Assembly (NCBI GenBank): GCA_964584035.1
Contig: CAZOYL010000024.1
Coordinates: 1-27,755, forward strand
DNA length: 27,755 bases
From: an uncultured Gemmatimonadota bacterium
GTDB taxonomy: Bacteria > SM23-81
Reading direction: 5' to 3'
Shown: positions 491-17,966 of the stretch, one piece after another
Layout of the letters: each line of letters starts with the position of its first letter
Numbering within the stretch: the first letter of the stretch is position 1
Program-made: the position numbers and the translations under genes
The notes under the pieces: model-generated
Told to the model about the DNA's origin: nothing
Database searches by the model: none
Seen by the model: the letters and a program-made list of their open reading frames with translations, nothing else

Positions 491-868
491 TTATCCCTTC
501 CACAGGCCGTGAACATTGCAGTACTCCCGGGCCGTCACGGTATCGGCATCGATACAGAACACCGCTTCCGGCTTATCTCCGGGCTTCAGGAATTTTCGGT
601 AGACCTTGCCGTCATCGGCGATCACCTGGATCCACTCGATGTAATGTTCCTCAAGCATCGGGTGGGCTACGCTGCCGACCTTGACCTTGAACCCGTCGGC
701 CGTCTTCTCCGCCACCGGGACATGCTTCTCCTGGGCGGCATCGGTGGTGTTCTCACGATACAGCTTCATGGGCTGGCCGCAGCAGACAAGTTCACCGGGG
801 CCCTTGTGCAGCAGCTCGACGATATTGCCGCACTTCTCGCATTTATAGACCTGCAGGCGTTCGGTCAT
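491..868 (-). CDS. dfx: Desulfoferrodoxin (2Fe superoxide reductase)
   Basis: Centre I CEKCGN...CCG; centre II EKHVP, HPMLEEH, CNVHG; ATGA overlap with the catalase stop. Confidence 0.97.
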
Positions 869-2388: not shown

Positions 2389-2408
2389 TTCGAAGACCTC
2401 CTTTTCAA

Positions 2409-2981: not shown

Positions 2982-2996
2982 TTTCTACCTCCTTTG

Positions 2997-4256: not shown

Positions 4257-4363
4257 ACGAAATTCTCTCTAAAAAATCCACTGGAAAATGGCTCGCTGCC
4301 CCGGGATGATGATCGGCAAACCGAAAAGGATGGCGCTGTTCAGCAGCAGATGCCGAGATCACC

Positions 4364-4777
4364 TTAGGCCACCTCGTCTCCTTCTTTTCCCTGGCAGGCC
4401 GGGCAAATTCCCATGAACTCGACACAGCGGCCGATGAGGCGGTAGCCGGTCGTCTCTTTGATGGCCTGTTCGCATGGATCGACTGGATCGATGAGGACAT
4501 CATCGACCCGTCCACAGCTCAGGCAGCGAATATGAGCATGTTCCTCGATACAATGGTCGAACCGCATCTGAGATCCGCCCAGTTGGATCTTCTTGATAAC
4601 CCCGTTTGCGGAGAGAATCTCCAGATTACGGTAGATGGTGCCCAGGCTGATACGAGGCAGTTTTCTGCGAACCCAATGGTAGACCTCGTCGGCGGTCGGA
4701 TGAGTGCATGATGACCTGACCATCTGAAGAATCACTTTTCTCTGTTTTGACATCCTCATTTTATTGTTGGACAGCAA
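4364..4777 (-). CDS. Fur-family repressor, PerR-like by context; start revised to TTG 4777 (ATG 4789 or 4759 possible)
   Basis: RMSKQR, HPTADEVY, ISLGTIYRNL, HAHIRCLSCG, CPAC; GGAGG 5 nt before TTG at 4777; the ORF-track start at 4846 falls in the -35 box. Confidence 0.9.
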   Translation of the reverse strand: MLSNNKMRMSKQRKVILQMVRSSCTHPTADEVYHWVRRKLPRISLGTIYRNLEILSANGVIKKIQLGGSQMRFDHCIEEHAHIRCLSCGRVDDVLIDPVDPCEQAIKETTGYRLIGRCVEFMGICPACQGKEGDEVA

Positions 4778-4787
4778 GTTGTCCTCC

Positions 4788-4822
4788 ATATTAGTAATAA
4801 TAACGATAACAATTACTAATAT
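4788..4822. promoter_or_regulatory. Probable Fur/PerR operator: perfect 11-bp inverted repeat
   Basis: ATATTAGTAAT (4788-4798), 13-nt AT-rich spacer, ATTACTAATAT (4812-4822); overlaps the -10 box and predicted TSS. Confidence 0.75.
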
Positions 4823-4846
4823 AATACAGGACCTGACCTTTGTCAA
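4818..4846 (-). promoter_or_regulatory. Sigma70-type promoter of the oxidative stress operon
   Basis: TTGACA (4846-4841), 17 nt, TATATT (4823-4818). Confidence 0.8.
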
Positions 4847-4882: not shown

Positions 4883-5839
4883 CTATCCTCCATAGTCCAG
4901 TTTTTTCAGGTACTTGAGATAATCACTGTCGGTGGTCAGAATCAGCCAGGTGTTCTCGTCCAGGGTTTTCTCATAGGTCTCCAGCGTTTTGACGAAGGAG
5001 TAAAATTCAGGATCTTTGTTATAGGCCCCGGCGTAGATCCGGGTGGCCTCGGCATCCCCCCGGCCCTTGATCTGCTGGGCCTCTTTATAGGCCTGGGAGA
5101 GAATGGTTTTCAACTGAATTTCTTTGTCTCCCAGGATCTTTGATTTCTCGCCTTCGCCCTGCGAACGATACTGGGCGGCCATCTGCAGGCGCTCGGCGAT
5201 CATTCTCTCGAACACCCGATCCCGGACGCTCTCGACATAATTGATGCGCTTGATGCGCACATCCACCAGCTCGATCCCCAGAGCCAGGCTCTTTTGAGCC
5301 GCATCCAGCAGTATGGCCCGGGTGATGTTCTCCCGGCCGACCTCGATCTCCTCCACCTCCTTCTGCACCCGGACCTCCTCCCCTCCCGAGCTGACCTCGG
5401 TGGTGAACATCGACCGGTTGGTGTTCCGCACCACCTCGATGAGCGAGTTATCGGCAATGCTGTTGCGCACAGCCCCCTCGATGATATTGTCCAGCTTCGA
5501 CTGGGCGATGGCTTCGCTGCCCTCCACCGACTCCAAAAAGGCCAGCGGGCTGACGATCTTCCAGCGAGCGCAGGTGTCCACCCAGATGTACTTTTTATCC
5601 AATGTGGGAATTCGGGTGGGACGGCCGTCCCACTGCAAAAGCCGTTTATCAAAGGTCATCACCTGTTGAATCAACGGTATCTTGATGTTGATCCCAGGCT
5701 CGACCGCCTCCCGAATGGGCTTGCCGAATTGGACCACCACGGCCTGCTGTGTCTGATCGACGATGAAGACGGCATTGATCAAAACGAGCAGCATGATGAC
5801 CCCGAGGATGCCGATCAGAACGACTTTATTGGGTTTCAT
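4883..5839 (-). CDS. hflC: Protease modulator HflC (SPFH); start revised to MKPNKVV
   Basis: N-terminal TM; FIVDQTQQAVVVQFGKP, VDVRIKRI, RMIAERLQMAAQYRSQGEG, DPEFYSF; ATGA overlap with hflK stop. Confidence 0.93.
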   Translation of the reverse strand: MKPNKVVLIGILGVIMLLVLINAVFIVDQTQQAVVVQFGKPIREAVEPGINIKIPLIQQVMTFDKRLLQWDGRPTRIPTLDKKYIWVDTCARWKIVSPLAFLESVEGSEAIAQSKLDNIIEGAVRNSIADNSLIEVVRNTNRSMFTTEVSSGGEEVRVQKEVEEIEVGRENITRAILLDAAQKSLALGIELVDVRIKRINYVESVRDRVFERMIAERLQMAAQYRSQGEGEKSKILGDKEIQLKTILSQAYKEAQQIKGRGDAEATRIYAGAYNKDPEFYSFVKTLETYEKTLDENTWLILTTDSDYLKYLKKLDYGG

Positions 5840-6834
5840 TTGGCACCTCTTTCCAGAGGATTGATACCCAGCAGAGGCATCAATCCCTCTACTCCATCGT
5901 CGATGAGATATTTGTTCTGCATCCTGGGAATCACACGGGAAAGCGTCTCCAGATACATCCGCCTCCTGGTCACGTTCTTGGCTTTGCGGTACTCTTCCCA
6001 CAGCGCCGTGAATTTCTGGGCATCCCCATTGGCTTCGTTGACTCTCTCGACCGCATAGCCCTCGGCCTCTTTGACCACCTTCTCCGCCTCACCCTCCGCC
6101 CGGGGAACGACCTCGTTATATTCGCGCCGGGCCTCCTGGATCAGCCGGTCCTTATCCTGCATGGCCGAGTTGACTTCATCAAAAGCCGGTTTGACCTTAT
6201 CCGGCGGATTCACGTCTTGAAGGGCCACCAGAATAACCTGGATGCCCAGGCCGTAGGAATCCAGGATGGACTGCATCCGCTCTCTGACCACATCGGTGAT
6301 ATCCAGCTTACCGAAGGTCATGACTTCATCGATGCTGCTGTCGCCGACGCTGAGCCTCATGGCCACCTCGGCGATATCCCTGATGGTCTCCTCGGCCTCC
6401 CGAACGTTGAACAAGAAAGCGATAGGATCCTCGATCTTGTACTGAATGATCCATTCCACCACGCCCACATTCAGATCGCCGGTCAGCATGAGGGATTCGT
6501 CGGAATAACCGGTTTTACGGATTTGCGTCAGAACGCCGGGTTTCACGGTCCGGAAACCGAACTCCTGAGTGAAATTTCTCTTGACCTTTGGTTTCTGAAC
6601 CGTCTCGACGCCAAAGGGCCATTTCATGTGCAGCCCGGGCGAGGTCGTTCTGACATAGCGTCCGAACCGGCGAATGATCCCGACCTCATCGGCCCCCACC
6701 TTGTAGAAGGTGGTGAATAACAAAACCAGGCCGGCGACGGCCAGAAGGATGAACCCTGTCGACCTTGGGCCTACCGGCGGCATTTTGAAATCCCTGTCGC
6801 CCAAAACAACCTTTTTACCGTCCTCAAAATCCAT
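5836..6834 (-). CDS. hflK: FtsH modulator HflK; start revised to MDFEDGKK
   Basis: RRFGRY..PGLHMKWPFGVE, MLTGDLN, LQDVNPPDKVKPAFDEV, VPRAEGEA, TRRRMYLETL; GGGAGGT RBS before ATG 6834. Confidence 0.93.
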   Translation of the reverse strand: MDFEDGKKVVLGDRDFKMPPVGPRSTGFILLAVAGLVLLFTTFYKVGADEVGIIRRFGRYVRTTSPGLHMKWPFGVETVQKPKVKRNFTQEFGFRTVKPGVLTQIRKTGYSDESLMLTGDLNVGVVEWIIQYKIEDPIAFLFNVREAEETIRDIAEVAMRLSVGDSSIDEVMTFGKLDITDVVRERMQSILDSYGLGIQVILVALQDVNPPDKVKPAFDEVNSAMQDKDRLIQEARREYNEVVPRAEGEAEKVVKEAEGYAVERVNEANGDAQKFTALWEEYRKAKNVTRRRMYLETLSRVIPRMQNKYLIDDGVEGLMPLLGINPLERGAK

Positions 6835-6869
6835 CGCTGACACCTCCCTTTCCTGACGGAGACAGCTCT

Positions 6870-6911
6870 CTATGAACCAGCACCTGTGAACCACCATCTG
6901 TGAACCACCGC
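6870..6911. repeat. Three imperfect 14-bp direct repeats in the hflK leader
   Basis: ctatgaaccagcac / ctgtgaaccaccat / ctgtgaaccaccgc. Confidence 0.7.
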
Positions 6912-6922
6912 CCACCCCTCAC

Positions 6923-6950: not shown

Positions 6951-7107
6951 GGAAAAACGGAAACATCACCCGCCGCCCATTGATATCTCTCCGCCGGTTC
7001 ATGGAAGGCCATGTTCAGGAAAATGATGGAAACAGCATCGTCCCGCCGCACACAACCTGTTCTATCGAGAACCTTTGGTACTTGTAACGTCAATGGTGCC
7101 TCTACCT

Positions 7108-7144
7108 AAAAAAAGGCGAAACTCATGTAAAAATGAGTCTCGCC
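7108..7144 (-). terminator. Intrinsic terminator closing the third ECF unit
   Basis: Minus strand GGCGAGACTCAT-loop-ATGAGTTTCGCC followed by T7. Confidence 0.85.
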
Positions 7145-7180
7145 TCTCGATCCGTCGACCATCCGGGAATCAGGCTTCTG

Positions 7181-7368
7181 CTATTTCAAGGCCTCGGTTT
7201 CGGCAACGGCCAGCTCAACTTTGATCCACAGTTCCAGACGTTCCGGTACCTCGCCGCCGGGTCCCCGAGCACCGGGACCACCGCCACCGCGACCACCGTC
7301 AGCAGGCATGCCGCCGCCATGAAGAAACAGGCGACCGTCCAGATAAACAGAATGTTTTGCCAGCGCAT
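7181..7368 (-). pseudogene. Probable internally deleted/frameshifted exported-protein gene (alternatively a 60-aa membrane peptide, 7186-7368)
   Basis: AAGGAG RBS, then ATG 7368 gives a signal-like MRWQNILFIWTVACFF; a shifted frame gives GGGMPADGGRGGGGPGARGPGGEVPERLELWIKVELAVAETEALK* with TAG at 7181-7183. Confidence 0.55.
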
Positions 7369-7397
7369 TTCAGCGATCTCCTTTTTGATCACCAAGC

Positions 7398-7436
7398 GAC
7401 ATGGGGGTGATCCCGCCAAATGGGCACCCCCATGTC
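7398..7436. other. Strong intergenic hairpin without a U-tract
   Basis: GACATGGGGGTG (7398-7409) / CACCCCCATGTC (7425-7436), perfect 12-bp stem. Confidence 0.75.
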
Positions 7437-7469
7437 ATCGTACCGCGCCGTCTGAGGTATCGCCTGGAT

Positions 7470-9023
7470 TTATTTGAGCAGCACCATCCGGTTGGTCACG
7501 GCGTGCCCTCCGGCCTGGATACGATAGAAATACACGCCGCTGGCCACCGGCTGGCCGTTCTGATGGAGACCATCCCAACGGACGCTGTAGCTGCCCTGGC
7601 GCTGATAGCCGACATCATAAGTGCGCACGAGCTGTCCGGAAATGTTGTAGATCTGTACCTTGACGTCATCCGACAGACCCAGGGTATAGTTGATCTGTGT
7701 CTCCGGATTGGCCGGGTTGGGATAGTTCTGGGCTCGAATGGGAGCCATGTCGGATGCCCCGGCGGGTGACAGCTCCCCGCTTTCGTCGGGCGGCTCGATG
7801 CCGAAATCACCCAGCATATCCGTGACCGCCTCGCAGATTTCCTCGCGGGAAGCGCCGGCTAGCCATAGATCGAGAATCGTGCTGCGGAGCGTTGCTCTCT
7901 GCTCGCCGGTCAGCTCGATGTCGGGATCCGGGATCTCAATTCCGAACTCGCTCATCAAGTTCTGGACGGCCTCGCGGATCTCCTCGGGAGAAGCCTCCTG
8001 CTGCCGAAGCGACCGGATGGTCTCATGCAATGTCTCCCGCTGCTCCCGGGTCAGAGGAGGCTTCAGGCAAGCCTGAATGTTCGGTAAAGGGGCTCTGCCA
8101 TGAATGCCATGACCGGATTCATGCCCCATCGGTCCCGGCCCGCGTTCAGGCATCTCAATTCCAAAAACCTCAAGTTGCTGGGCCACGGCGGAGCGGAGCT
8201 CCTCACGGGTGGCGCCACCTGTCCACAGCTCGAAGATGACAGCGTGGAGGGCTTGACGCTGTTCCTGGGTCAGCTCCGGCGGCGGATCCGGCAATTCGAT
8301 GCCCCACTCGGAGAGCTTTCCTTCCACCGCGGCCCTGATCTCATCGTGCGAAGCGCCCTGCTGACGCAACTCACTTATCAGCTGGTGGATCTCCTCTCTT
8401 TGCTCCTCGTTGAGCTGGTCAAGAATGCCCCGGAGAAAATGACCACCATGACCCATTTCGCGCCCGGGTCCGCCATGCTCCGGCGGCTCGATGCCCCACT
8501 CCTGGAGCAGTCCGGCCACAGCCTGGTGAATCTCCATCTGGGAGGCTCCATCCCGCCACATCTGCAGCATGGTCGAGTGAAGGGTGGCCCGCTGATCCTC
8601 GGTCAAATTATCTCCGAAGCCTTCACGGCCGCCTTCACGGCCGCCTTCACGGTCGCCTTCACGGCCGCCTTCACGGTCGCCTTCACGGCCGCCTTCCCGA
8701 TCGCCTTCCCGACCACCCTGACCACCCCGTCGGCCGCCAGGTCCGCCGGGGCGTTCCGGCATCTCGATGCCCCACTCGGCAAACAGCTCGGAGATGGCTT
8801 CGTGGATTTCCTCACGACCGGCTCCCGCAGCCCGCATCTCTTCCATCAGATCGCGGACCGTCTCGCGCTGCTCATCGGTCAGGTTGGAGAAAAATCCCCT
8901 TTCCGAACCGCCGCCATGATGCCCGCCGAAAGGCTGGGCCCAGAGAGCGCCCGTCAGGCTCAACAGCAGGGACCCGCTCAACAGGATCGATAATGCCACG
9001 AGTACGAGATTGAAGCGTTTCAT
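7470..9023 (-). CDS. Secreted protein with six LTxxQ helical repeats and a C-terminal FlgD-Ig/T9SS type A-like domain
   Basis: Signal peptide (ALWA|Q); six ~42-aa L[T/N]xxQR...GIExP units; C-terminus QNYPNPANPETQINY...IYNISGQLVR...WDG...VASGVYFYRI...MVLLK; GGAGG RBS. Confidence 0.88.
   Translation of the reverse strand: MKRFNLVLVALSILLSGSLLLSLTGALWAQPFGGHHGGGSERGFFSNLTDEQRETVRDLMEEMRAAGAGREEIHEAISELFAEWGIEMPERPGGPGGRRGGQGGREGDREGGREGDREGGREGDREGGREGGREGFGDNLTEDQRATLHSTMLQMWRDGASQMEIHQAVAGLLQEWGIEPPEHGGPGREMGHGGHFLRGILDQLNEEQREEIHQLISELRQQGASHDEIRAAVEGKLSEWGIELPDPPPELTQEQRQALHAVIFELWTGGATREELRSAVAQQLEVFGIEMPERGPGPMGHESGHGIHGRAPLPNIQACLKPPLTREQRETLHETIRSLRQQEASPEEIREAVQNLMSEFGIEIPDPDIELTGEQRATLRSTILDLWLAGASREEICEAVTDMLGDFGIEPPDESGELSPAGASDMAPIRAQNYPNPANPETQINYTLGLSDDVKVQIYNISGQLVRTYDVGYQRQGSYSVRWDGLHQNGQPVASGVYFYRIQAGGHAVTNRMVLLK
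8619..8714. repeat. In-frame 12-bp tandem repeat, 8 units, encoding (G/D)REG
   Basis: gccttcacggcc / gccttcacggtc / gccttcccgatc variants every 12 bp from 8619. Confidence 0.95.
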
Positions 9024-9042
9024 CGTTTTACCTCCTGTTCGG

Positions 9043-9276
9043 TCAAACCATTTTCTTCAGGTTTCTGAGCTCGTTGTAGAAACGGACGAACTCGCTATTG
9101 ATAAATTCCACCTTCAGCCGATCGCCGTTCCCGTTGAGATCGAAGGTGAAAAGGGTCTTTGATCTTCTTTGATCGCATTTGATGAGACTATGGCCCTTCA
9201 TCTTCAGATAGGCAGAAAAGGCCAGGTCATCGGTGGTGATGTGATGCGTTACCATCTGATGTGCATCATCGGTCAC
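9043..9276 (-). CDS. Small DUF5659-like protein
   Basis: TTDDLAFSAYLKMKG...TLFTFD...FYNELRNLKKMV resembles DUF5659 (recognition only); AAGGAG RBS; 19 nt before the next gene. Confidence 0.7.
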   Translation of the reverse strand: MTDDAHQMVTHHITTDDLAFSAYLKMKGHSLIKCDQRRSKTLFTFDLNGNGDRLKVEFINSEFVRFYNELRNLKKMV

Positions 9277-9333
9277 GGTTCATCACTCCTTTACAGGTTC
9301 GCCGGCATACATCACGTCGAAACCTTTCATCTG

Positions 9334-9364
9334 ATTAGACAGCACCATGGTTGTCTTTATTCCC
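9334..9364 (-). promoter_or_regulatory. ECF promoter motif, copy 3
   Basis: GGGAAT-aaagacaaccatggtgct-GTCTAAT. Confidence 0.85.
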
Positions 9365-9411
9365 GCAAGTTTGAGATTTCCCGCTCAATTGTTCTCTTTT
9401 TACCCGGTTTA

Positions 9412-10635
9412 TTACTCATAATGAAGCGCATCGATAGGATTCATAACGGCGGCTTTGCGAGCCGGGAAGAAGCCGAACAGAATCCCCACGGTTCCGGCGA
9501 AAAAGAAGGCCAGCAGGACAATGCCGGGCTGGATAAAAGCCCTGATGGGAGTAAACGAATTCAGCACAAAGGAGGCGCCAAAGGCCATCAGGATGCCGAT
9601 CAGGCCCCCGGTCAGGCTGAGAACCACCGCCTCGGCCAGAAACTGCGTCAGCACATCGCCGCTGCGCGCGCCGATGGCCAGACGGATGCCGATCTCACGG
9701 GTCCGTTCGGTGACCGTGACCATCATGATGTTCATAATGCCGATGCCCCCGACCAGCAGGGAAACAGCCGCCACGGCGCCCAGCAGGAGGGTCATGGTCT
9801 GCATGGCCGAGGTGGCCGCCTCGGTGATGTCGGCCTGGTTGCGAATGCTGAAATCGTCTTCCTCGACCGGGTCGAGCCGGTGAGATGACCTCAGAATGGA
9901 CCGGACTTCTTCCTGAGCTGCGTCCATGGCCTCCAGGGAGACGGCGCTGAGGTTGATCATGTTGACATAGTTCCTTCCGCCTTTCAGGCGATAGAGAACG
10001 GTGCTCGAGGGGGCCAGAATCATATCATCCTCATCGCGCCCCATGGGATTCTGCCCCTTTTCCTCCAGTACGCCGATGACGGTGAAGGGCGTGTTGACGA
10101 TGCGAATCTTCTCTCCGGTAGGATCCCGGCTGCCGAAAAGCTCATCGGCCACCGTCTGGCCCAGAAGGGCTACCTTTCTTCGCGAGCGGACGTCCGTTTC
10201 GGTGAACATCTCTCCATATTTCAGCGACCAATCGCGAATGGACAGGTACTGAGGAGAGACGCCCACGATGCTTGTGTTCCAGTTGTTTCCCCCGCCCACG
10301 ACCTGCCCGCCGGCACTGACGATGGGCGACAGGTGCTCGATCAGCGTAACCTGTTTCTCAAGATCTTCCACATCGTCCAGAGTCAGAGTTTGAAAACTAC
10401 CCGCCCCGCGATGCACCCCGCCCATGCGGCTGCCGCCGGGAAAGACGACGATCAGATTGCTGCCCAGGGATGTGATCTGTTCCTCGATGCTTTTCTGCGA
10501 TCCCTGCCCGATGGCCACCATGATGATCACGGCGCCGACTCCGATGATGATCCCCAGCGAGGTCAACAGACTGCGCAGGCGGTTCTTTATGATGCTGCGA
10601 TAGGCGGCCTTGAGGAGATTATATACGGGTATCAT
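9412..10635 (-). CDS. MacB/FtsX-family ABC permease
   Basis: RSLLTSLGIIIGVGAVI, periplasmic domain, SLLVGGIGIMNIM, ERTREIGIRLAIGA, PARKAA..PIDALHYE. Confidence 0.95.
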   Translation of the reverse strand: MIPVYNLLKAAYRSIIKNRLRSLLTSLGIIIGVGAVIIMVAIGQGSQKSIEEQITSLGSNLIVVFPGGSRMGGVHRGAGSFQTLTLDDVEDLEKQVTLIEHLSPIVSAGGQVVGGGNNWNTSIVGVSPQYLSIRDWSLKYGEMFTETDVRSRRKVALLGQTVADELFGSRDPTGEKIRIVNTPFTVIGVLEEKGQNPMGRDEDDMILAPSSTVLYRLKGGRNYVNMINLSAVSLEAMDAAQEEVRSILRSSHRLDPVEEDDFSIRNQADITEAATSAMQTMTLLLGAVAAVSLLVGGIGIMNIMMVTVTERTREIGIRLAIGARSGDVLTQFLAEAVVLSLTGGLIGILMAFGASFVLNSFTPIRAFIQPGIVLLAFFFAGTVGILFGFFPARKAAVMNPIDALHYE

Positions 10636-10638
10636 TTT

Positions 10639-11379
10639 TCAAACGTCCTCTTCCCGATAATTCTTAAAATCTGCTTCGGCATTGCGCCGATGTTCGACCA
10701 GGGTATCCCGCCGAATGATTCCATCCCGTATCTCGACGGTCCGTTTTGCATACCGGGCAATATCCGGCTCATGTGTCACCAATATGATCGTAATCCCCTG
10801 ATCGTTGAGCTCCTGAAACACAGACATGACATCGATGGAGGTTCGGGTATCCAGATTGCCGGTGGGCTCATCGGCCAGGATGATGGCCGGCTGATTCACC
10901 AACGCCCTGGCGATGGCGACGCGCTGCTGTTCCCCCCCCGAAAGCTGGCTGGGCACATGATCCAGCCGGGCGCCCAATCCCACCCGTTCCAGCGCTTCAA
11001 TGGCCGCTTTCCTGGGCGCGGCGATGCGTCCCGTTCTATCGTAGAAAAGCGGCAGTTCCACGTTTTCCAGCGCCGACGTCCTGGGCAGCAGATTATAGAC
11101 CTGAAAAACAAAGCCGATCTTCTGATTTCGTATATCGGCATACTCGTTCTTACTCAGGGCGTTCACGTTCACGCCCGCCAGGATGTAGTCACCCGAAGTG
11201 GCCTGATCCAGGCATCCCAGGATGTTCATCAGCGTCGATTTCCCCGAGCCGGATGAGCCCATGATGGCCGCCATCTCTCCGTTTTCGATGACCAGATCAA
11301 TCCCTCGCAGCGCGTGGACAGCCACCTCACCCATCTGGTACATTTTCGTGATGCCTTTGACTTCAATGAGAGAGCTCAT
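10639..11379 (-). CDS. MacB/LolD-type ABC ATP-binding protein
   Basis: GSSGSGKST, LSGGEQQRVAIARAL, ILADEPTGNLD, VTHE. Confidence 0.96.
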   Translation of the reverse strand: MSSLIEVKGITKMYQMGEVAVHALRGIDLVIENGEMAAIMGSSGSGKSTLMNILGCLDQATSGDYILAGVNVNALSKNEYADIRNQKIGFVFQVYNLLPRTSALENVELPLFYDRTGRIAAPRKAAIEALERVGLGARLDHVPSQLSGGEQQRVAIARALVNQPAIILADEPTGNLDTRTSIDVMSVFQELNDQGITIILVTHEPDIARYAKRTVEIRDGIIRRDTLVEHRRNAEADFKNYREEDV

Positions 11380-11456
11380 AGAATTTTCCTTATATCATAC
11401 GCGACAGAATGCGAAGGGCATCGAGAGCACCGTCGCTCTGTTGTATATCCCGAAGT

Positions 11457-12797
11457 TTAAAACGGAGGCCTGCCGCCGAACACCGGTCTCCTGCTCTGAT
11501 TTTGGGAATTGCTTCCTTTCGCTTCACCCGATACGCCGCTGATCACCTGCAGGCCCTCCTGGAGGTCTCTATTCACCCGTGAATCCATCGGCCCCGGGCG
11601 GCGGCCTCCGGCGGCGTCGGATGGAGGCTCGAGCCCGGCGATGACGGTCTGCTGGCCGTCGGTGGGGCCCTTCCGGACGGGCAACATGTCCAGCTGGCCA
11701 TGTTCATCAAGAAACCACAGAGCTGCCACATCACTCGGGGAGTTCTCCCCGGAGAACAGGTCCCGAATGATACCCCCTCCCGGAGCTCGTTCCCGGGACG
11801 CTCGCTCCCGAGTTTGATTCCTGATCGAATCGGGCATCGAGCCGGAGCGGCGCTGCATCGTTCGGCGAAGCTCCTGCAACATCCTCTGAGTGGGCTGCAG
11901 GCGGAGAGCGGCGTTCGAGACCAGCAGGACATCCTCACTCTGCTCGATGATGAAATCGATGGTGGCCGTCATTCCGGGCAGCAGCAGACCATCCGGGTTG
12001 GGCGCGTCCACAATGACGGTGTAGTTGACGACATTCTGCACGGTGGTCGGCTGCAGACGGACCTGCTTGACGATACCACTGAATATCTTTTCCGGATAGG
12101 CTTGAACGTCGAAGCGGACGGTCTGTCCCTCCCGAATATAGCCGATATCGCTTTCGTCCACCTGGGCATGGATCTCCATCTGAGAAAGATCCTCGGCGAT
12201 GATGAACAGGACCGGCGCCTGAAGGCTGGCGGCCACGGTCTGTCCCTGCTCGACGGCCCTTTGAATAACGGTCCCATAAATAGGCGAGCGGATGACGGCG
12301 TATCCCAGATTGGTCTCGGCCCTTCCCAGGGCGACCCTGGCTGACTGCAGGCCGGCCCGGGTGGTCTTCACACTGATTTCCAGGGGCAAAAACTCCTGCT
12401 CTGAGATAAAGCCCTTCTCGAACAGGGGTAGATTGCGCCGGCGTTCCGCCACTGCTTGATCGTACAGAGCCTGGGCGCGGTCCACCTGAGCCCGGGCATC
12501 CAGCACGGCGGCCTTCAGCAGGGATGTGTCCAGCACGGCCAGCACCTGTCCTTTTCGCACCACATCGTTGAAATCGACGTTGAGGACGTCGATGATTCCC
12601 GACACCTGGGTACCCACCTCGACGGTGCTTAAAGGATTGACGGTACCCGTGGCAGAAACGGTGTTCTCCAGATTGCCCCGGGTGATCTCGACGAACTGAT
12701 AGGTGCTCTCGGCACCATTCCTGCCGGTCCATAGAATCAGGAAGACGGCCAACGCGGCGACGATGACGCCGAGGGGAATGAGTACTTTTTTCTTCAT
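11457..12797 (-). CDS. MacA-like periplasmic adaptor subunit
   Basis: N-terminal TM; VEVGTQVSG, IRSPIYGTV, GQTVAASLQAPVLF, VDESDIG, LLPGMTA; Gly/Arg-rich tail. Confidence 0.93.
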   Translation of the reverse strand: MKKKVLIPLGVIVAALAVFLILWTGRNGAESTYQFVEITRGNLENTVSATGTVNPLSTVEVGTQVSGIIDVLNVDFNDVVRKGQVLAVLDTSLLKAAVLDARAQVDRAQALYDQAVAERRRNLPLFEKGFISEQEFLPLEISVKTTRAGLQSARVALGRAETNLGYAVIRSPIYGTVIQRAVEQGQTVAASLQAPVLFIIAEDLSQMEIHAQVDESDIGYIREGQTVRFDVQAYPEKIFSGIVKQVRLQPTTVQNVVNYTVIVDAPNPDGLLLPGMTATIDFIIEQSEDVLLVSNAALRLQPTQRMLQELRRTMQRRSGSMPDSIRNQTRERASRERAPGGGIIRDLFSGENSPSDVAALWFLDEHGQLDMLPVRKGPTDGQQTVIAGLEPPSDAAGGRRPGPMDSRVNRDLQEGLQVISGVSGEAKGSNSQNQSRRPVFGGRPPF

Positions 12798-12845
12798 CTC
12801 GCTCTTCCTCCAAATTCTTGATCACGTCGTCATTTGAGCATTCTG

Positions 12846-13571
12846 TCACAAAGGTATCACGGGGCAGTTATCCAGGCGGCCGCTATAATAATCCAGAGCC
12901 ACTCGACTCAAGAGAAGATTGTAGCTGGACTGAATCCAACCGTTGTTCGCGGCCACATACTGCGCTCGAACCAGGCTGAGCTCCGCCAGAATGGCCGACC
13001 CGACGTCGTATCGTTTTCGGGTGACCTCCAGAGCCTGCCGGGAATATTCCCGCTGGGCCCGGGCTGCCTCCAGCTCTTTTTGAGCCGTCGAGTAGTCAAA
13101 CAGGGCCTGATGAACCTCGAATATGACCGTTTGTCTGAGATCTTCCAGATTTAATTGCTCATTCGCCAGCTGAATCCGGGCTCTCTGCAGAGAGGCGATA
13201 TTGCCGAAACCGTCGAATAGAGTCAGCCGGGTGGAGAAGCCCAGATTCAAAGATTGACTCTCCCGATTCTCTGTCACATCGGTCATTGGATCATGACTTC
13301 GGGAGTAACTCTGAGATGCCGAAGCCGAGGCGCTCAGGTCGGGAAAGAAAGCCTCTTTGGATTGCCCCAGCGATATGGCACTGGACGCGACCTGATGGGC
13401 AGACCGCTGCAGCTCGATGTTCTGTTCCAGGGCAATGTCGATGGCATCCTTCAGGGCGATGAATTGACATTCCTGCGCCTGGATGATCTGCACGGTCAGG
13501 GCGAGCAAGGCGCATATACAGGCTAAAAAAATGAGAACCATGAGGTTTGATCTGCCAAAAAGAATGTTCAT
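12846..13571 (-). CDS. Half-length TolC-family outer membrane protein (single OEP repeat, 241 aa)
   Basis: Signal peptide; IALKDAIDIALEQN, FFPDLSAS, LTLFDGF running directly into RIQLANEQLNLEDLRQ...RYDVG...ALDYYSG. Confidence 0.85.
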   Translation of the reverse strand: MNILFGRSNLMVLIFLACICALLALTVQIIQAQECQFIALKDAIDIALEQNIELQRSAHQVASSAISLGQSKEAFFPDLSASASASQSYSRSHDPMTDVTENRESQSLNLGFSTRLTLFDGFGNIASLQRARIQLANEQLNLEDLRQTVIFEVHQALFDYSTAQKELEAARAQREYSRQALEVTRKRYDVGSAILAELSLVRAQYVAANNGWIQSSYNLLLSRVALDYYSGRLDNCPVIPL

Positions 13572-13651
13572 GTCCTATATCCTTCTGTTTTCGGTCGGTA
13601 GGTACTCTGATTGTTTATCGCAGTCAATAATAGCCATCGCCTTTCTGGAGA

Positions 13652-13682
13652 ATTAGACAAGATGCCCGATGGAAATATTCCC
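13652..13682 (-). promoter_or_regulatory. ECF promoter motif, copy 2
   Basis: GGGAAT-atttccatcgggcatctt-GTCTAAT. Confidence 0.85.
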
Positions 13683-13827
13683 CCTGTCTCCGAGAAATCA
13701 GGCTTGCCTGGTAATTCGTTCTTTGGAGGAAAACTTACCTGGTGGAGAAACCGCCGCCTGAGATGATAACGAAGCTCTCATCATCGCAGAGCCGGGTGTC
13801 GCTCTGAAGTCATGCGGGAAGCAGAGT

Positions 13828-13859
13828 AAAAAAGCCGCCGAGCTGTCCTGCCCGGCGGC
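13828..13859 (-). terminator. Intrinsic terminator of the sigma operon
   Basis: Minus strand GCCGCCGGGC-aggaca-GCTCGGCGGC then T6. Confidence 0.85.
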
Positions 13860-13898
13860 CGTTCTGGGAAGAATCATTTTCCCAATCCTTTTCTGATC

Positions 13899-14387
13899 TT
13901 ACCCTCCATCTCTATCCGGCGGCGGCAGACACCTTTCCCCCTCATCTGGCGGTGGAGGTGATCCCCGTTCGCCCGGCGGGGGCGGCGATCCAGATTTTTT
14001 CCCTCTGGAGTGATCCGGCCGCCGATCCCTGAAATGTCTGGGTGGTTTCGGCGCACGCGCCAAGCGCTCCTTCTGCTCCTCGGTGAGAATGGGGTCGAGA
14101 TCCTTTTCCAGGGAATCCTTCAGAGCCAGCATCTGGCTTTCGAACCGGTCATGGATCACCAGAAATTGCTGCGAGTGTTTCATCAGGATCTGGTGGACCG
14201 TATCGCGCTGAGATTCCGTCGGCTCGATGATGCTCTCGATCCGGGTCGCCAGATGATCCGGATGTCCCATGGACGAGAACCGCCTCACCCGGTGACGAAC
14301 GACCGCTCCGGTGATCAGCGCTCCGATGATCATACCGATCACCAGGGTGAGCCCGATGATGACATATGTTTTCGTCTTCATCTTCAT
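13899..14387 (-). CDS. Membrane-anchored Spy/CpxP/CnrX-like periplasmic helical protein
   Basis: N-terminal TM; PTESQR and ILTEEQKERL (LTxxQ-type) motifs; His/Met residues in the helices; Pro-rich tail; ATGA overlap with the anti-sigma gene. Confidence 0.75.
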   Translation of the reverse strand: MKMKTKTYVIIGLTLVIGMIIGALITGAVVRHRVRRFSSMGHPDHLATRIESIIEPTESQRDTVHQILMKHSQQFLVIHDRFESQMLALKDSLEKDLDPILTEEQKERLARAPKPPRHFRDRRPDHSRGKKSGSPPPPGERGSPPPPDEGERCLPPPDRDGG

Positions 14388-14824
14388 AACAGATCCTCCA
14401 CGGTGGCATCGAACGGAGATTCCAGTACCTCCACCAGTGTCTCCTGGGGTATGCCCAGGGCACCAGCGACAGATATATTGCCTGTCTTGACAACATTAAA
14501 GACCAGCAGCAGAAGGATCGCCGTCGCACCGACCAGGGCTACTCTGCGAAAGGCAAACTGGAGCGATTCGAAGAACTTCTGCGTCCCATTCCGAGTCTCG
14601 CCCAGTGCCGCAATACGGTGCATGACTCGTTCGGCGAAGAAAGGCCGGAATGATTTCGGAGCACCGGCAGCAATCGATCCGCGGAGCGCCGCAATGCGCT
14701 CCTTCTCCTGCTGCAATTGAGCCGATTGCTCCAGCGCATCTTGCAGCCGCCGCTGCTCATCCTCCGTGAGCTGGCCATCGAAGGACAGATAGAGCAGCTC
14801 TGTTATATTCTTTTTCATGTTCAT
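14384..14824 (-). CDS. Putative transmembrane anti-sigma factor
   Basis: ELLYLSFDGQLTEDEQRRLQDAL anti-sigma-like N-terminus lacking HxxxCxxC; FRPFFAERVM; one TM; ATGA overlap with sigma. Confidence 0.8.
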   Translation of the reverse strand: MNMKKNITELLYLSFDGQLTEDEQRRLQDALEQSAQLQQEKERIAALRGSIAAGAPKSFRPFFAERVMHRIAALGETRNGTQKFFESLQFAFRRVALVGATAILLLLVFNVVKTGNISVAGALGIPQETLVEVLESPFDATVEDLL

Positions 14825-15375
14825 GCTCCGTAATATGGCGTGAGAAGTTCTTTCAGTTTCTTTTGTGCCCGTGATAACCTGGAGAGCACGGTGCCGATGG
14901 GTATTTTCAATATTTTTGCGGTCTCCTCGGTCGAATACCCATCGATCAGACGCAGGACGACCACGGAACGGAATTTAGCATCCAGCCGCCCGATGGCCTT
15001 ATGCACCATTTCTTTATCCTCATCAGGCTGGGCATCGGCGCTCTCATCCGGAAGATCGTCCAGGTGATCGATCGATGGCCGAAAGAATATCTTCGAGCGG
15101 CGCTTACGTCGTCGCAACTCGTTCAAAGACAAATTAATGGCAATACGCGTGAGATACGTTCCCAGTTTCGATTCGCCCCGGAAATTCTTCAGACTGCGGT
15201 AGAGGCGGATGAATGTTTCCTGTCCGACATCATCGGCCTCGGGGCCATTTCCCAGCATGCCGATGATGGTCCCGGCCACCAGAGATTCGTAGCGCCTGAC
15301 CAATGTTTGGAAGGCCTCGTGGTCGCCCTCTTGGGCTCGCCTGACCAGTGTTTCGTCCGTCAAATGATCGCCCAT
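14821..15375 (-). CDS. ECF sigma factor (sigma70 group 4)
   Basis: GDHEAFQTLVRRY, ADDVGQETFI, FRGESKLGTYLTRIAIN, YSTEETAKILKIPIGTVLSRLSRA. Confidence 0.96.
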   Translation of the reverse strand: MGDHLTDETLVRRAQEGDHEAFQTLVRRYESLVAGTIIGMLGNGPEADDVGQETFIRLYRSLKNFRGESKLGTYLTRIAINLSLNELRRRKRRSKIFFRPSIDHLDDLPDESADAQPDEDKEMVHKAIGRLDAKFRSVVVLRLIDGYSTEETAKILKIPIGTVLSRLSRAQKKLKELLTPYYGA

Positions 15376-15406
15376 GAAAGGGTCCGGTGGCTGGCTTCAT
15401 TCACCA

Positions 15407-15437
15407 ATTAGACAACCGCACAGGAAAATAGATTCCC
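15407..15437 (-). promoter_or_regulatory. ECF promoter motif, copy 1 (autoregulatory position)
   Basis: GGGAAT-ctattttcctgtgcggtt-GTCTAAT, ending 31 nt before the sigma ATG. Confidence 0.85.
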
Positions 15438-15477: not shown

Positions 15478-15544
15478 GAGATTTCACGCAACAGATTTGA
15501 CACGGTGATCTTTCACCGGAGATTTCACAAAGGAGATTTCCCGC
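15478..15544. repeat. Degenerate GAGATTTCAC direct repeats with ~14-bp period
   Basis: Copies at 15478, 15492, 15507, 15519 and 15533. Confidence 0.5.
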
Positions 15545-15586
15545 AGGCGGTTTGTAACCGAAAGGCTTGTAATCCCTGACCAGAAT

Positions 15587-15738: not shown

Positions 15739-17775
15739 CTATTTCAGGTTCACCAGGCCGGTGTCGAATTCGCCCACCGGGTTGGAATCATCCGATTCCT
15801 TGGTGACTGAGACGGCCCTCACCGAGTAGTAATAATGGGTGCTGGTGCTGCCCACCACACCGGTGTCCAGGTAGAACAGGGCCGTGGTGGAATCCAGCAG
15901 GGTCGTCCCCACCGATCCGGGATCGGTGTCCCGATAGATCTTGTAGCGATCGACCCAGACCGGATGGTCATTGGGGTTCAGGGTCACGTGAGACCACTCC
16001 AGCTGGACATCGCCGCTGCCGGATTTGGCCCCGCCCGACAGGGTGACGGCCAGATCGTCCACCGGCTTGGGGATCACGTCCAGGAAGTATCCGAACTTGT
16101 CCGTGGGCCGAACCTGCGGGTTGCCCACGCCGTAGTTGTCGTCGTCGGTGATGTGAATTCTGTTGACGTAGGCCGGCAGATCGTTGTCAAAAGCACCGTT
16201 GCCATATTTATACTCCACCCATTCGCTGGAGCCCATGGGGAAGGTTATGGTGGCAGACCAGATGTTATCATCGGCGGTGACATCGCCGTTATAGCCCTCA
16301 TCGTTGAGGGTGTCGTCGTTAGCCGGATCGAAATCCCAGCTCAGCGGTGCCACGCTGCCCACCAGCAGCAGCGGCAGCATCACCGAGTCGGCGGTGCTCA
16401 TATCGACCGAGAAGACCACGGGAACATCGTGGTTGGCCTGCTCCTGGGTGGTGTAGGTCAGATCAAAAGCCGTCTGATCGACGATCTGGAACTGCCAGTT
16501 TCCATCGATCCAGTTGCCGGCCGTGTCGGTGACACCCCATTCCCAGGTGTTGGCCCCGCCGTCGACCACCAGATCGAGAGAGTGCTTCCAGACGTGGTCG
16601 TTGGGGGTGTCATCGCCGTTGGTACCATCGTCGTACATGTCATACAGGAAGCCCAAACCCCAGGAAGGATCATAGGCATGGTAGGCGTTGGTGTCAAAGC
16701 TGCCCTTGAACTTGAAGCCCGGCTGCCAGACGCTGTCGGCGGAGTCGTCCACGATGAAGGTCACCACGGCGATGCCGAATCCGGTAAAGGTGGCCTGGTC
16801 GTGATCGGGGTGGATATAATTGCCGTTCATATCCTCCACCGCGTGGCCCACCGAGACCGTATACACGACGCCGAAGGTCTGAGCGCTGGTGGTCAGCCTG
16901 ACGCCGTCGACACCCAGCGATTCGGCCGCCGTCACCGAAAGGCCGGCGATGGCGTAGTTGCTGGGATTGAAGGCCGATGTGTCCATGGCCTCGCTGAAGC
17001 TCAGGTCCACAGAGGTCGGACCGGTGGCCACCGCGCCGTCCAGCCACGGTTTGGTGGTATCGGCGCCGCTGGACTGGTGGACCAGTGTGGACAGATCGAG
17101 GTAGGCCATCATCTGCCAGCTGCTGTCCGGATCGGCGTTCCAGTCATCGAAGGGATCGTTGGAGGTGTCGCGGGCGTTATCGTTGTTGTTTCCTCCGGTG
17201 CTCCATACTTCGCACCACAGGGACTCCGGGGAGGTGATCCTGGATTTCTCGATCTTCCACTCGATGCCCGAGGGGGTCCCGGCGCTGAGCCCAACCCCAT
17301 CGAGATTCCCGTACTGCGTCCAGCTGCCGGCGCTGTCGTTGTAGGCCCAGAGTTGGGTGTGAAAAACGTCATAGGCCCCGCCGTCCACCCAGCTGTAAAA
17401 ACCGTATTCAGGCAGATGCGGATTGGTCCCCCGGACATTGCGCACCCAGGCATCGGAGGTATCGGCTCCCGAATCAGTGATCCCATCTATATCCAAATAG
17501 ATGGCGTATTTGCCCCAGTTGGTCGTTCCGATATCATCGTTGATGGTGAAGCAAAAATACCAGTAGGTGGCGTCATTGCAGACATAGAAGTCGAGCAGGT
17601 CCATGTTCGCGTTCCCGCCTCCATCTCCACCGGGATCTGACGCCTCGGCCGCGCCGTAAACACCATCGACGACACCATCCATAACGGGCGAGCCGAATCC
17701 CTCGGCCCAGACGAGTCCGGACCAGAATAACGCGCAGGCTGCTAAGGTGATCAGGGACAAGAAGAATTTATTCAT
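15739..17775 (-). CDS. Secreted acidic multidomain beta protein (DOMON/CBM9-like, Ig-like, two choice-of-anchor X-like motifs, C-terminal FN3-like); start revised to MNKFFLS
   Basis: GGAGGAG RBS; signal peptide LVWA|E; VDLSFSEAMD...SNY Ig-like; MYDDGTNGD..NDHVW and LNDEGYNGD..DDNIWS; YYYSVRAV..SNPVGEF. Confidence 0.8.
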   Translation of the reverse strand: MNKFFLSLITLAACALFWSGLVWAEGFGSPVMDGVVDGVYGAAEASDPGGDGGGNANMDLLDFYVCNDATYWYFCFTINDDIGTTNWGKYAIYLDIDGITDSGADTSDAWVRNVRGTNPHLPEYGFYSWVDGGAYDVFHTQLWAYNDSAGSWTQYGNLDGVGLSAGTPSGIEWKIEKSRITSPESLWCEVWSTGGNNNDNARDTSNDPFDDWNADPDSSWQMMAYLDLSTLVHQSSGADTTKPWLDGAVATGPTSVDLSFSEAMDTSAFNPSNYAIAGLSVTAAESLGVDGVRLTTSAQTFGVVYTVSVGHAVEDMNGNYIHPDHDQATFTGFGIAVVTFIVDDSADSVWQPGFKFKGSFDTNAYHAYDPSWGLGFLYDMYDDGTNGDDTPNDHVWKHSLDLVVDGGANTWEWGVTDTAGNWIDGNWQFQIVDQTAFDLTYTTQEQANHDVPVVFSVDMSTADSVMLPLLLVGSVAPLSWDFDPANDDTLNDEGYNGDVTADDNIWSATITFPMGSSEWVEYKYGNGAFDNDLPAYVNRIHITDDDNYGVGNPQVRPTDKFGYFLDVIPKPVDDLAVTLSGGAKSGSGDVQLEWSHVTLNPNDHPVWVDRYKIYRDTDPGSVGTTLLDSTTALFYLDTGVVGSTSTHYYYSVRAVSVTKESDDSNPVGEFDTGLVNLK

Positions 17776-17852
17776 TTTCTCCTCCTTTCCGTCCCTTTCG
17801 GGTGAGAAAAAGATCGTATACCGCTTCAACGGGTATACCTTCTTACTCTATC

Positions 17853-17881
17853 ATTTTACCAGATAGTAAAAATTCTGTCAA
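17853..17881 (-). promoter_or_regulatory. Sigma70 promoter with extended -10
   Basis: TTGACA, 17 nt ending TGG, TAAAAT. Confidence 0.8.
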
Positions 17882-17966
17882 GACCTTTTTTCATATTTTC
17901 GGAGAATTCCTGTTCGCGGCAAGATGGCCGGAATCAGCACGGGCACTGAAAATTCTTTTCCGGCGA

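What the first reader, a model, noticed from the sequence alone, without database searches (positions are those of the whole stretch)
7108..15437. Self-contained ECF regulon defined by a triply repeated GGGAAT-N18-GTCTAAT promoter
Seen: the same bipartite motif with identical spacing and unrelated spacers occurs at 15407-15437, 13652-13682 and 9334-9364, always on the minus strand and just upstream of the first gene of a unit. The units are (i) ECF sigma/anti-sigma/Spy-like protein, (ii) half-TolC/MacA/ATPase/permease, (iii) DUF5659-like protein/six-repeat secreted protein/gene remnant. Units (i) and (iii) end in terminators. The other operon heads I inspected carry TTGAC-type sigma70 promoters instead. 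Known: ECF sigmas usually autoregulate through bipartite motifs of the GGAA.../GTC... kind, and CnrH-CnrY-CnrX controlling an efflux pump is an architectural precedent. Inference: this is an envelope or metal stress system coupling a Spy-like sensor to a MacAB pump and an exported helical repeat effector, a combination I do not recognise.
Basis: partly seen in the sequence, partly recalled or inferred. Interest (0 to 1): 0.85.

Follow-up and report, generated by a model that had tools for sequence, protein, structure and literature searches.

The report
Conserved ECF sigma envelope-chaperone regulon
The thrice-repeated DNA motif is very probably the promoter of the neighbouring stress sigma factor, a switch shared by many uncultured bacteria that turns on Spy-like chaperone proteins, an unnamed lipoprotein and often an export pump; the type of switch is familiar, and in this strain two of its target genes carry internal deletions.

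Summary
GGGAAT-N18-GTCTAAT occurs three times, only here in the 2.9-Mb genome, each time heading a gene unit. The same motif lies upstream of 72 of 78 orthologous sigmas from many phyla, against 1 of 25 other ECFs. It also precedes 17 of 21 repeat-protein genes picked without reference to the sigma. So it is very probably this sigma's promoter, although no start site was mapped.

The conserved core is sigma, a single-pass anti-sigma and a membrane-anchored Spy/LTXXQ protein. The usual targets are further Spy-like proteins, a DOMON-fold lipoprotein (the 'remnant' here) and, in a minority, MacAB-TolC.

The best reading is an envelope protein-folding stress response rather than a Cnr-like metal sensor, since no metal site is conserved in the +2 protein. 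The repeat protein has a type IX secretion tail and the genome encodes SprA and PorV, so the pump is probably not its export route. The half-TolC is a real, in-register 219-residue deletion seen only in this strain, most likely decay.

The architecture and promoter type have precedents (ECF111, ECF207, S. meliloti RpoE1). I found no description of this clade's regulon.

The parts
15407..15437 (-). Promoter P1 (GGGAAT-N18-GTCTAAT), autoregulatory, 32 nt before the sigma start
   Evidence: conserved upstream of orthologues
14821..15375 (-). ECF sigma factor, 184 aa (sigma2 plus sigma4, no sigma3 hit)
   Evidence: clade of 81 sequences, SH-aLRT 99 in a quick tree
14384..14824 (-). Putative anti-sigma, 146 aa: N-terminal helical domain without zinc ligands, one TM helix near 95-113, short periplasmic tail
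   Evidence: (RsiW, E 0.004); present in 75 of 76 loci
13899..14387 (-). +2 protein, 162 aa: N-terminal hydrophobic anchor or signal, Spy/CpxP (LTXXQ)-type periplasmic helices, Pro-rich tail
   Evidence: family profile hits Spy at E 1.6e-5; LTXXQ in 25 of 58 members; 71 of 73 loci
13827..13860 (-). Intrinsic terminator-like hairpin plus U-tract ending unit i
13652..13682 (-). Promoter P2, 81 nt before tolC
   Evidence: same place in G002
12846..13571 (-). Single-repeat 'half' TolC, 241 aa: in-frame, in-register 657-nt deletion near 13184 that fuses the start of repeat 1 to the end of repeat 2
   Evidence: bridged by contigs of runs X1, X2, X5 and by L127, L128
11457..12797 (-). MacA-type periplasmic adaptor, 446 aa
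10639..11379 (-). MacB/LolD-type ABC ATPase, 246 aa
9412..10635 (-). MacB-type permease (MacB_PCD plus FtsX), 407 aa
9334..9364 (-). Promoter P3, 58 nt before DUF5659
   Evidence: same place in G001, G003 (exact GGAAT-N18-GTCTAA) and G002 (GTCTCAT)
9043..9276 (-). DUF5659 protein, 77 aa, soluble, function unknown
   Evidence: precedes the repeat gene in G001-G003 and 3 of 80 loci
7470..9023 (-). Secreted protein, 517 aa: signal peptide, six acidic three-helix LTxEQ repeats, T9SS type-A-like C-terminal domain
7398..7437 (-). GC-rich hairpin without U-tract between the repeat gene and the lipoprotein gene (similar hairpin in G002)
   Evidence: z -2.4 here, -3.3 in G002
7181..7368 (-). Remnant of the conserved DOMON-fold lipoprotein gene: signal-peptide start and last ~40 codons, out of frame, middle deleted
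   Evidence: intact 275-aa gene at the same place in G002; fold
7107..7148 (-). Intrinsic terminator-like hairpin plus U-tract ending unit iii
   Evidence: z -6.3

Best explanation
An autoregulated ECF sigma reads GGGAAT(A)-N17/18-(TT)GTCTAA promoters. At rest it is held at the membrane by the co-transcribed single-pass anti-sigma. The membrane-anchored Spy/CpxP-type +2 protein probably modulates that anti-sigma, as CpxP does CpxA or CnrX does CnrY (inferred; roles recalled). Envelope protein-folding or membrane stress releases the sigma, which fires P1 (positive feedback, with more anti-sigma and +2 protein as a brake), P2 (MacAB-TolC) and P3 (DUF5659, the Spy-like repeat protein, the DOMON lipoprotein). 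Across its clade this works like an ECF-run counterpart of the Cpx/Bae response: several Spy-like helical proteins, a lipoprotein, often a TonB-dependent receptor, sometimes a pump. In this strain the lipoprotein gene is dead and TolC has lost half its length, so the pump arm is probably impaired or borrows another outer-membrane factor. Shown by comparison: the motif, its position, its co-occurrence with the sigma and with the targets, gene identities and the deletions. Inferred: transcription from the motif, anti-sigma activity, the signal, chaperone activity and the export route.
For: Motif upstream of 72 of 78 clade sigmas versus 1 of 25 other ECFs (first pattern 69 of 78, reverse-strand control 4 of 78). 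A matrix built from 70 orthologue sites ranks the window's three sites first to third in the genome (29.6, 28.9, 23.6; best reversed-genome control 18.6). 129 sites versus 5 for the reversed pattern in 1.17 Mb of loci. 42 of 56 extra sites have a Spy-like, repeat, lipoprotein, DUF5659 or pump gene within 480 nt. Repeat-protein loci picked independently carry the motif in 14 of 15 genomes with the clade anti-sigma and 3 of 6 without it, control 0. A mapped S. meliloti RpoE1 promoter has the same geometry, GGGAAT-N18-GTCTTAT (PMC6180224 Table 1 passages). The closest solved sigmas are AlgU/RpoE-type. The +2 profile hits Spy; satellites are LTXXQ/Metal_resist proteins.
Against: No start site, reporter or expression data. 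The strict pattern was refined, so 72 of 78 is somewhat fitted. Kin are not independent, and some loci were seen through two tools. The window's +2 protein has no Pfam hit of its own at E 0.01, and the Spy match covers only about 50 residues. The repeat units match Metal_resist (53 of 55 members), nematode polyprotein allergen (36 of 55) and LTXXQ (25 of 55) alike, and align only weakly with the +2 family (probability 39%), so 'Spy-like chaperone' is a lead for them. The repeat family keeps Met and His at matching places in each repeat, which leaves room for metal binding. Two related ECFs outside the clade have GGAACTT..GTCTAA sites and one has the strict motif, so cross-talk is possible.
Confidence: 0.62

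Rival explanations
1. Same promoter and regulon, but a heavy-metal (Cu, Zn, Ni) response in the CnrYXH/ZraP manner: the +2 protein senses metal, the repeat protein chelates it, the pump exports it.
For: Architecture like CnrYXH (PMC13492112 passages). Metal_resist hits in satellites and in 53 of 55 repeat proteins. Per-repeat Met (62-78%) and His (51-75%) conservation in the repeat family. ECF111 and ECF281 were suggested to be metal-related.
Against: The +2 family has only one His column (55%) and no conserved Met or Cys. The pumps are MacAB or AcrB type, and I saw no metal ATPase or copper oxidase among the regulon genes annotated (30 of 89 unassigned genes plus known ones sent to Pfam). The CnrH consensus differs. 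Metal_resist also covers Spy-fold proteins without a metal role (recalled).
Confidence: 0.2
2. The regulon handles a small molecule or lipid (bile-like compound, lipopeptide, surface glycan). The repeats bind hydrophobic ligands like nematode polyprotein allergen units; the DOMON lipoprotein with the TonB receptor captures ligand; MacAB-TolC exports it.
For: NPA Pfam hit in 36 of 55 repeat proteins and ABA-1 at E 0.02. Lipoprotein fold matches CBM9 (Z 12.8, rmsd 3.0, 142 aligned) and the haem subunit of ethylbenzene dehydrogenase (Z 13.2, rmsd 3.3, 155 aligned). TonB-receptor-like genes in regulon units of 12 loci.
Against: The matches are weak or shared by many helical families; a shared fold shows no ligand. 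Most loci lack a pump.
Confidence: 0.12
3. The half-TolC is functional: six single-repeat subunits build the 12-stranded channel that three double-repeat subunits normally build, and dock on the MacA hexamer.
For: The deletion is in frame and exactly in register with the internal repeat; OMF protomers arose by duplication (PMC8277102 passages). Signal region, frame and the rest of the operon are intact. The junction is present in three runs.
Against: Recombination between repeats gives an in-register product by itself. No other whole single-repeat protein among 149 other best hits, 3 other hits or 49 more distant metagenome loci, where the few short frames were open-ended or unrelated in structure. 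The neighbouring lipoprotein gene is also deleted, and G001 and G003 lost the pump at this place, so the cluster decays by deletion. Two other TolC-like genes are in the genome.
Confidence: 0.1
4. The motif is not this sigma's promoter but a site for another regulator, or chance.
For: No experiment. Another ECF in the genome (C26) has a GGGAAT -35 upstream, with a different -10.
Against. In family f64, where the clade anti-sigma was found in 0 of 8 genomes, the three repeat genes lack this motif and share a different one.
Confidence: 0.04

Closest known systems
ECF111 (also ECF03s10, ECF281s2) of Casas-Pastor et al. 2021, PMC7826278 (supplementary Text S2: passages and parts 1, 9, 19 read; tables not readable)
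   Same: Sigma, single-TM anti-sigma at +1, LTXXQ or Metal_resist protein at +2; -10 GTCTAA; proposed envelope or metal stress.
   Different: -35 is TTGAACCT (ECF111) or GGAACTT (ECF281) there, GGGAATA here. Those groups are mainly cyanobacterial, firmicute and proteobacterial; context is said not to extend beyond +2; ECF281 anti-sigmas have zinc fingers.
ECF26/ECF207 promoters, e.g. S. meliloti RpoE1 (PMC6180224, passages incl. Table 1) and the ECF207 consensus GAATAA/GGTCT (PMC13492112, Table 4 passage)
   Same: -35 GGAATA(AA), GTC-type -10, 18-nt spacing; small local autoregulated regulons.
   Different: Proteobacterial; zinc-binding HX3CX2C anti-sigmas; sulfite, cytochrome and protease targets; no Spy-like +2.
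CnrYXH-CnrCBA of Cupriavidus metallidurans (PMC13492112 passages)
   Same: Three-part switch of sigma, single-pass anti-sigma and membrane-anchored helical periplasmic partner; controls an efflux pump.
   Different: Different promoter; gene order reversed; Ni sensing by CnrX ligands has no conserved counterpart here; the pump there is a metal RND. CnrH scores 53 bits against 105 for AlgU.
E. coli Cpx/Bae envelope responses and sigmaE-RseA (roles recalled; search listing only)
   Same: Output of Spy/CpxP-type periplasmic proteins and efflux genes; sigma closest in sequence to AlgU/RpoE; -10 GTCTAA as in ECF02.
   Different: Cpx and Bae are two-component systems. SigmaE uses GAACTT, RseB and a large scattered regulon. 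Neither has a T9SS-tailed repeat protein or the DOMON lipoprotein.
Self-contained ECF regulon on S. coelicolor genomic island 6 (bioRxiv 10.1101/247056, abstract and outline)
   Same: Sigma, anti-sigma and contiguous regulon as one unit.
   Different: Unrelated genes (small-molecule enzymes) and host.

Membership tests
ECF (group 4) sigma factors | sigma2 and sigma4 domains, no sigma3 | tested here: met
   PF04542, PF08281/PF04545, TIGR02937 above cut-off; no sigma3 hit
ECF (group 4) sigma factors | Autoregulatory bipartite promoter conserved upstream of orthologues | tested here: met
   72 of 78 versus 1 of 25
ECF (group 4) sigma factors | Sigma-dependent transcription from the motif | not testable with these tools
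   needs start-site mapping or reporters
ECF111 | Single-TM anti-sigma at +1 and LTXXQ/Metal_resist protein at +2 | tested here: met
   definition
ECF111 | -35 TTGAACCT | tested here: not met
   -35 is GGAATA; -10 GTCTAA agrees
ECF111 / ECF25 / any Casas-Pastor group | Score above the group HMM threshold | not testable with these tools
   Supplementary tables unreadable (0 rows); group HMMs not held
ECF25 | Taxa incl. Ignavibacteriae, Calditrichaeota, Bacteroidetes, Gemmatimonadetes; promoter GGAAC/GTC; single-pass anti-sigma | tested here: inconclusive
   Taxa and anti-sigma fit; the fifth -35 base is T, not C
ECF207 / ECF26 | -35 GGAATAAA with GTC (207) or GTT (26) -10 | tested here: met
   Matrix (fits ECF207; -10 differs from the ECF26 consensus)
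ECF207 / ECF26 / ECF281 | Zinc-binding (HX3CX2C) anti-sigma | tested here: not met
   No conserved His or Cys column in 58 anti-sigmas; zf-HC2 below cut-off
CnrYXH (ECF291) | Conserved metal ligands in the periplasmic partner | tested here: not met
   Only H71 at 55%; no conserved Met or Cys in the mature part
CnrYXH (ECF291) | Homology of the +2 protein to CnrX | tested here: inconclusive
   CnrX not among 29 hits at E <= 1, Spy on top; no structure comparison of this protein was run
CnrYXH (ECF291) | CnrH promoter consensus | tested here: not met
   ATACGC/CCCTCA
Spy/CpxP (LTXXQ) family, +2 protein | LTXXQ helical domain | tested here: met
   Family level only: 25 of 58 members; Spy E 1.6e-5
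Spy/CpxP (LTXXQ) family, +2 and repeat proteins | Dimer cradle and holdase activity | not testable with these tools
   needs biochemistry
T9SS type A cargo (repeat protein) | Signal peptide plus Ig-like C-terminal sorting domain | tested here: met
   TIGR04183 44.9 bits, cut-off 23; PorU CTD Z 11.0, rmsd 2.6, 91 aligned, tied with Vpr at Z 11.1
T9SS type A cargo (repeat protein) | Translocon and shuttle genes in the genome | tested here: met
   SprA_N E 1e-31, 7 PorV matches, 85 FlgD_ig-type tails; other T9SS parts not searched
TolC / outer membrane factor | Two OEP repeats per protomer | tested here: not met
   One repeat; 219-residue deletion relative to G002
MacAB-type exporter | Adaptor, ABC ATPase and MacB_PCD/FtsX permease | tested here: met
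   (split MacB; below the macrolide-specific cut-offs)

The most novel reading that the evidence does not exclude
This sigma clade runs an undescribed protein-quality-control regulon of FCB-related bacteria with an arm outside the outer membrane: a tandem Spy-like repeat protein is sent through the type IX system to act as an ATP-independent chaperone for the many T9SS surface proteins (85 such tails in this genome), with a dedicated DOMON lipoprotein as partner. A bolder side reading (about 0.1): the strain's single-repeat TolC works as a hexameric channel, a natural return to the pre-duplication state.
Probability: 0.2. Interest if true: 0.72.

Novelty: new variant of a known kind. Interest (0 to 1): 0.42.

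Why it matters
It yields a sharply defined promoter and a predicted regulon for an ECF clade spread over Bacteroidota, KSB1, Calditrichota, Marinimicrobia, Zixibacteria and Aminicenantes records. That assigns two unnamed families (the T9SS-tailed repeat protein and the DOMON lipoprotein) to a stress pathway and makes them testable. One record of the clade is a named, completely sequenced strain (L113, Roseithermus). The sigma, anti-sigma and promoter could serve as a synthetic-biology switch. The half-TolC is a ready-made natural test of whether an outer-membrane factor can assemble from single repeats. The regulatory logic itself is conventional.

Tried and rejected
Complex prediction of the +2 dimer with the anti-sigma TM and periplasmic part: no answer, score 0.02, mark 0.32; not used as evidence. 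No RNA holder listed for the stretch. Atlas search with the repeat region: no usable hit. Fold searches of the whole repeat protein were filled by the C-terminal domain, so the repeats' fold was not tested alone. A candidate fourth site before murA (C29:10536, score 17.7) is below the control maximum and not conserved in 4 of 4 relatives, which carry TTGACA or lie in an operon: rejected. The other matrix hits examined (ranks 4-10) lie inside genes, antisense or below the control maximum. Four looser sites in G001 and one in G003 were fetched; one lies between gyrase genes, the others inside or antisense to genes. Assembly error as the cause of the half-TolC: rejected. dN/dS against G002 is 0.08-0.23 for all ten segments, but with saturated dS it cannot date the deletion. 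ECF group assignment failed because the supplementary tables could not be read; they may hold members of this clade. The careful tree did not finish; the quick tree with 10 of the 25 outside ECFs was used. Alignment A4 held one wrong row and was replaced by A8. Paper searches found no description of this clade, its motif or a natural half-TolC: ECF, anti-sigma, CpxP, Spy, MacAB, LTXXQ; TolC half, hexamer; T9SS tails outside Bacteroidetes; GGAAT with GTCTAA. That library lacks most subscription papers, including Staron 2009 and Rhodius 2013, which I did not read. Earlier-findings look-ups by place, by sequence and by the first word set returned nothing.

Full report
Observation. GGGAAT-N18-GTCTAA matches three times in the window, all on the minus strand, and never in 100 shuffles. 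With the final T these are the only exact copies in the 2.89-Mb genome; one site with one mismatch has the same spacing elsewhere. They stand 32, 81 and 58 nt before the first gene of each unit. Pfam and NCBIfam confirm the genes. Units i and iii end in strong hairpins with U-tracts; there is none between ii and iii. Of nine other gene heads, five have TTGA[CT] within 220 nt.

Host. The genome (91.7% complete) belongs to a small uncultured phylum, with seven genomes held. The nearest named sigma relative, at 67% identity, is in a record titled candidate division Zixibacteria (L047). The four runs laid on the stretch are salt-marsh and marine-sediment metagenomes.

The motif follows the sigma. 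Orthologues at 59-69% identity occur in G001, G002, G003 and G056. Each of these genomes has three GGAAT-N18-GTCTAA sites, one of them directly before the sigma; G004, without a close orthologue, has none. In a quick tree these and the window's sigma form one branch (81 rows, SH-aLRT 99) against ten other ECFs. Of the 78 with enough upstream DNA, 69 match a first loose pattern (reverse-strand control 4). A refined pattern, GGAAT-N17/18-GTC[TAC]AA, matches 72 of 78, against 1 of 25 other ECFs; it was refined after seeing the data. A matrix from 70 orthologue sites, without the window's own, gives (G/T)GGAATAAA-N13-TTGTCTAA and ranks the window's sites first to third genome-wide, above the reversed-genome maximum of 18.6. 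The next candidates are not credible; the murA site is not conserved.

The motif also follows the targets. In the 80 loci there are 129 sites against 5 for the reversed pattern. The anti-sigma follows the sigma in 75 of 76 loci and the +2 gene in 71 of 73. Among 54 loci with at least 5 kb downstream, 37 have an extra site, 24 a further Spy-like or repeat gene, 26 the lipoprotein, 11 MacA, 2 AcrB, and only 3 have satellite, lipoprotein and MacA together. 42 of 56 extra sites precede such a gene; 14 were unassigned. TonB-receptor-like genes recur in regulon units of 12 loci. As a reverse test I picked loci by the repeat protein in 121 genomes of the phylum of G056 (22 genomes with a match). Of 21 with at least 300 nt upstream, 17 carry the motif: 14 of 15 where the clade anti-sigma was found and 3 of 6 where it was not; control 0. 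The three misses in family f64, which has no anti-sigma hit in 8 genomes, share another bipartite motif. For the lipoprotein (30 of 55 matches examined, 27 with enough upstream DNA) the figures are 9 of 16 and 1 of 11; it is often a second gene beyond the 1.5 kb held. Some of these loci overlap the earlier set, and kin are not independent.

The switch. The sigma is closest to AlgU/RpoE among solved structures (105 bits; CnrH 53). The anti-sigma has an N-terminal domain weakly like RsiW (E 0.004), no zinc ligands, one TM helix and a short tail. The +2 family has an N-terminal hydrophobic helix with two invariant glycines, matches Spy by profile (E 1.6e-5) and LTXXQ in 25 of 58 members. It has no conserved metal-ligand set. 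That it senses for, or binds to, the anti-sigma is inference from gene order and from CpxP and CnrX (roles recalled; the CnrYX mechanism also in passages of PMC13492112).

The repeat protein. It has 136 relatives among the 8000 candidates scored, nearly all of the 120 listed with the same tail. The model (mean pLDDT 78, pTM 0.53) shows a signal helix, six three-helix units joined by flexible linkers and an Ig-like tail. The tail passes the T9SS type A model and matches the PorU tail at Z 11.0, tied with an unrelated Ig-like domain. The genome has SprA, seven PorV-like genes and 85 such tails, so T9SS export is more likely than export by MacAB-TolC. The repeats match Metal_resist, NPA and LTXXQ models alike and keep Met and His at matching places. 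Chaperone, metal sponge and lipid binder all remain open; chaperone is preferred because other loci put plain LTXXQ proteins at the same promoter.

Two deletions. G002 carries the whole cluster in the same order, with a 460-aa TolC and an intact 275-aa lipoprotein gene. The window's TolC lacks 657 nt, joined in register between the two repeats near 13184. Contigs of runs X1, X2 and X5 cross the junction without differences; no listed piece of X3 does. Two further assemblies are 99.9% identical there. No other whole single-repeat relative was found. The remnant is the start and end of the lipoprotein gene, out of frame. That family has an invariant lipobox-like Cys, no Pfam match and a DOMON/CBM9-like fold. 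G001 and G003 have lost tolC-macAB here, leaving a permease scrap, and have the promoter before a remote AcrB-type gene. The modules are therefore interchangeable, and this copy is probably eroding.

Comparison with known systems. The supplement of PMC7826278 (passages and three parts read, tables unreadable) describes the sigma, single-TM anti-sigma, LTXXQ/Metal_resist triad for ECF111, ECF03s10 and ECF281s2, and GGAATAAA/GTC promoters for ECF207. Mapped S. meliloti RpoE1 promoters have the same 18-nt geometry. Compact ECF regulons are known (abstract). No described group that I read fits all features: ECF111 fails on the -35, ECF26/207/281 on the zinc anti-sigma and taxa, and ECF25 is undecided. 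It works like an ECF-driven Cpx/Bae-type response; group membership could not be tested. Earlier notes of this scan on other genomes read similar modules the same way; they are unchecked AI notes and not used as support.

Verdict. A real and well-supported promoter and regulon (about 0.95 that the motif is this sigma's promoter), of a conventional regulatory kind, in a clade and with targets that I did not find described. Envelope folding stress 0.62, metal 0.2, small ligand 0.12. Functional half-TolC about 0.1. Interest 0.42.

Noticed in passing
L196 (G137), L206 (G120), L210 (G073), upstream of the repeat gene: In family f64, where the clade anti-sigma was not found, the repeat gene has a different shared motif (CAGAATA or CAAAATA, about 15 nt, GGCGTATAG): an apparent hand-over to another ECF.
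   Followed up: partly
G000 genome-wide; C88:8549-9808 (SprA_N), C3:774-1439 (PorV): A T9SS-like system with 85 FlgD_ig-type tails and seven PorV-like genes in a lineage outside Bacteroidota.
   Followed up: partly
window 8595-8738: 12-nt tandem repeat (GGRE/GDRE) in the first linker of the repeat protein; its copy number varies between runs (24 nt missing in X1, 60 nt in X5).
   Followed up: partly
window 9412-13571 against L031: Synonymous divergence from G002 is patchy: about 0.45-0.6 for tolC 5' part, macA and permease, 1.4-1.8 for tolC 3' part and ATPase. This hints at recombination within the pump operon.
   Followed up: no
G000:C26:11700-12236 (L027): A second ECF (41% identity) has GGGAAT-N17-CGTATT upstream: same -35, different -10; possible cross-talk.
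   Followed up: no
L061, L063, L081, L099, L107, L117: TonB-dependent-receptor-like barrel genes, some followed by DUF4249, lie in units headed by the same promoter, often after the DOMON lipoprotein.
   Followed up: partly
window 1-4846: Oxidative-stress run: Fur/PerR-like regulator, permease with a metal-binding tail, rubrerythrin, catalase, desulfoferrodoxin, ferritin (labels from reading the ORFs, not searched).
   Followed up: no
window 4883-6915: hflK-hflC-like SPFH pair just downstream of the regulon, with its own TTGACT/TATTAT promoter at 6950.
   Followed up: no
window 15739-20522: Two large secreted proteins upstream (696 aa with Ig-like domains; 851 aa with a peptidase C25-like part); the 696-aa gene also precedes the sigma in G001.
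   Followed up: no
window 15478-15553: Three imperfect 21-nt direct repeats (GAGATTT...) upstream of P1, a possible binding site for another regulator.
   Followed up: no
L033:2038-2421: G003 has a WXXGXW-repeat lipoprotein gene inserted after the +2 gene.
   Followed up: no
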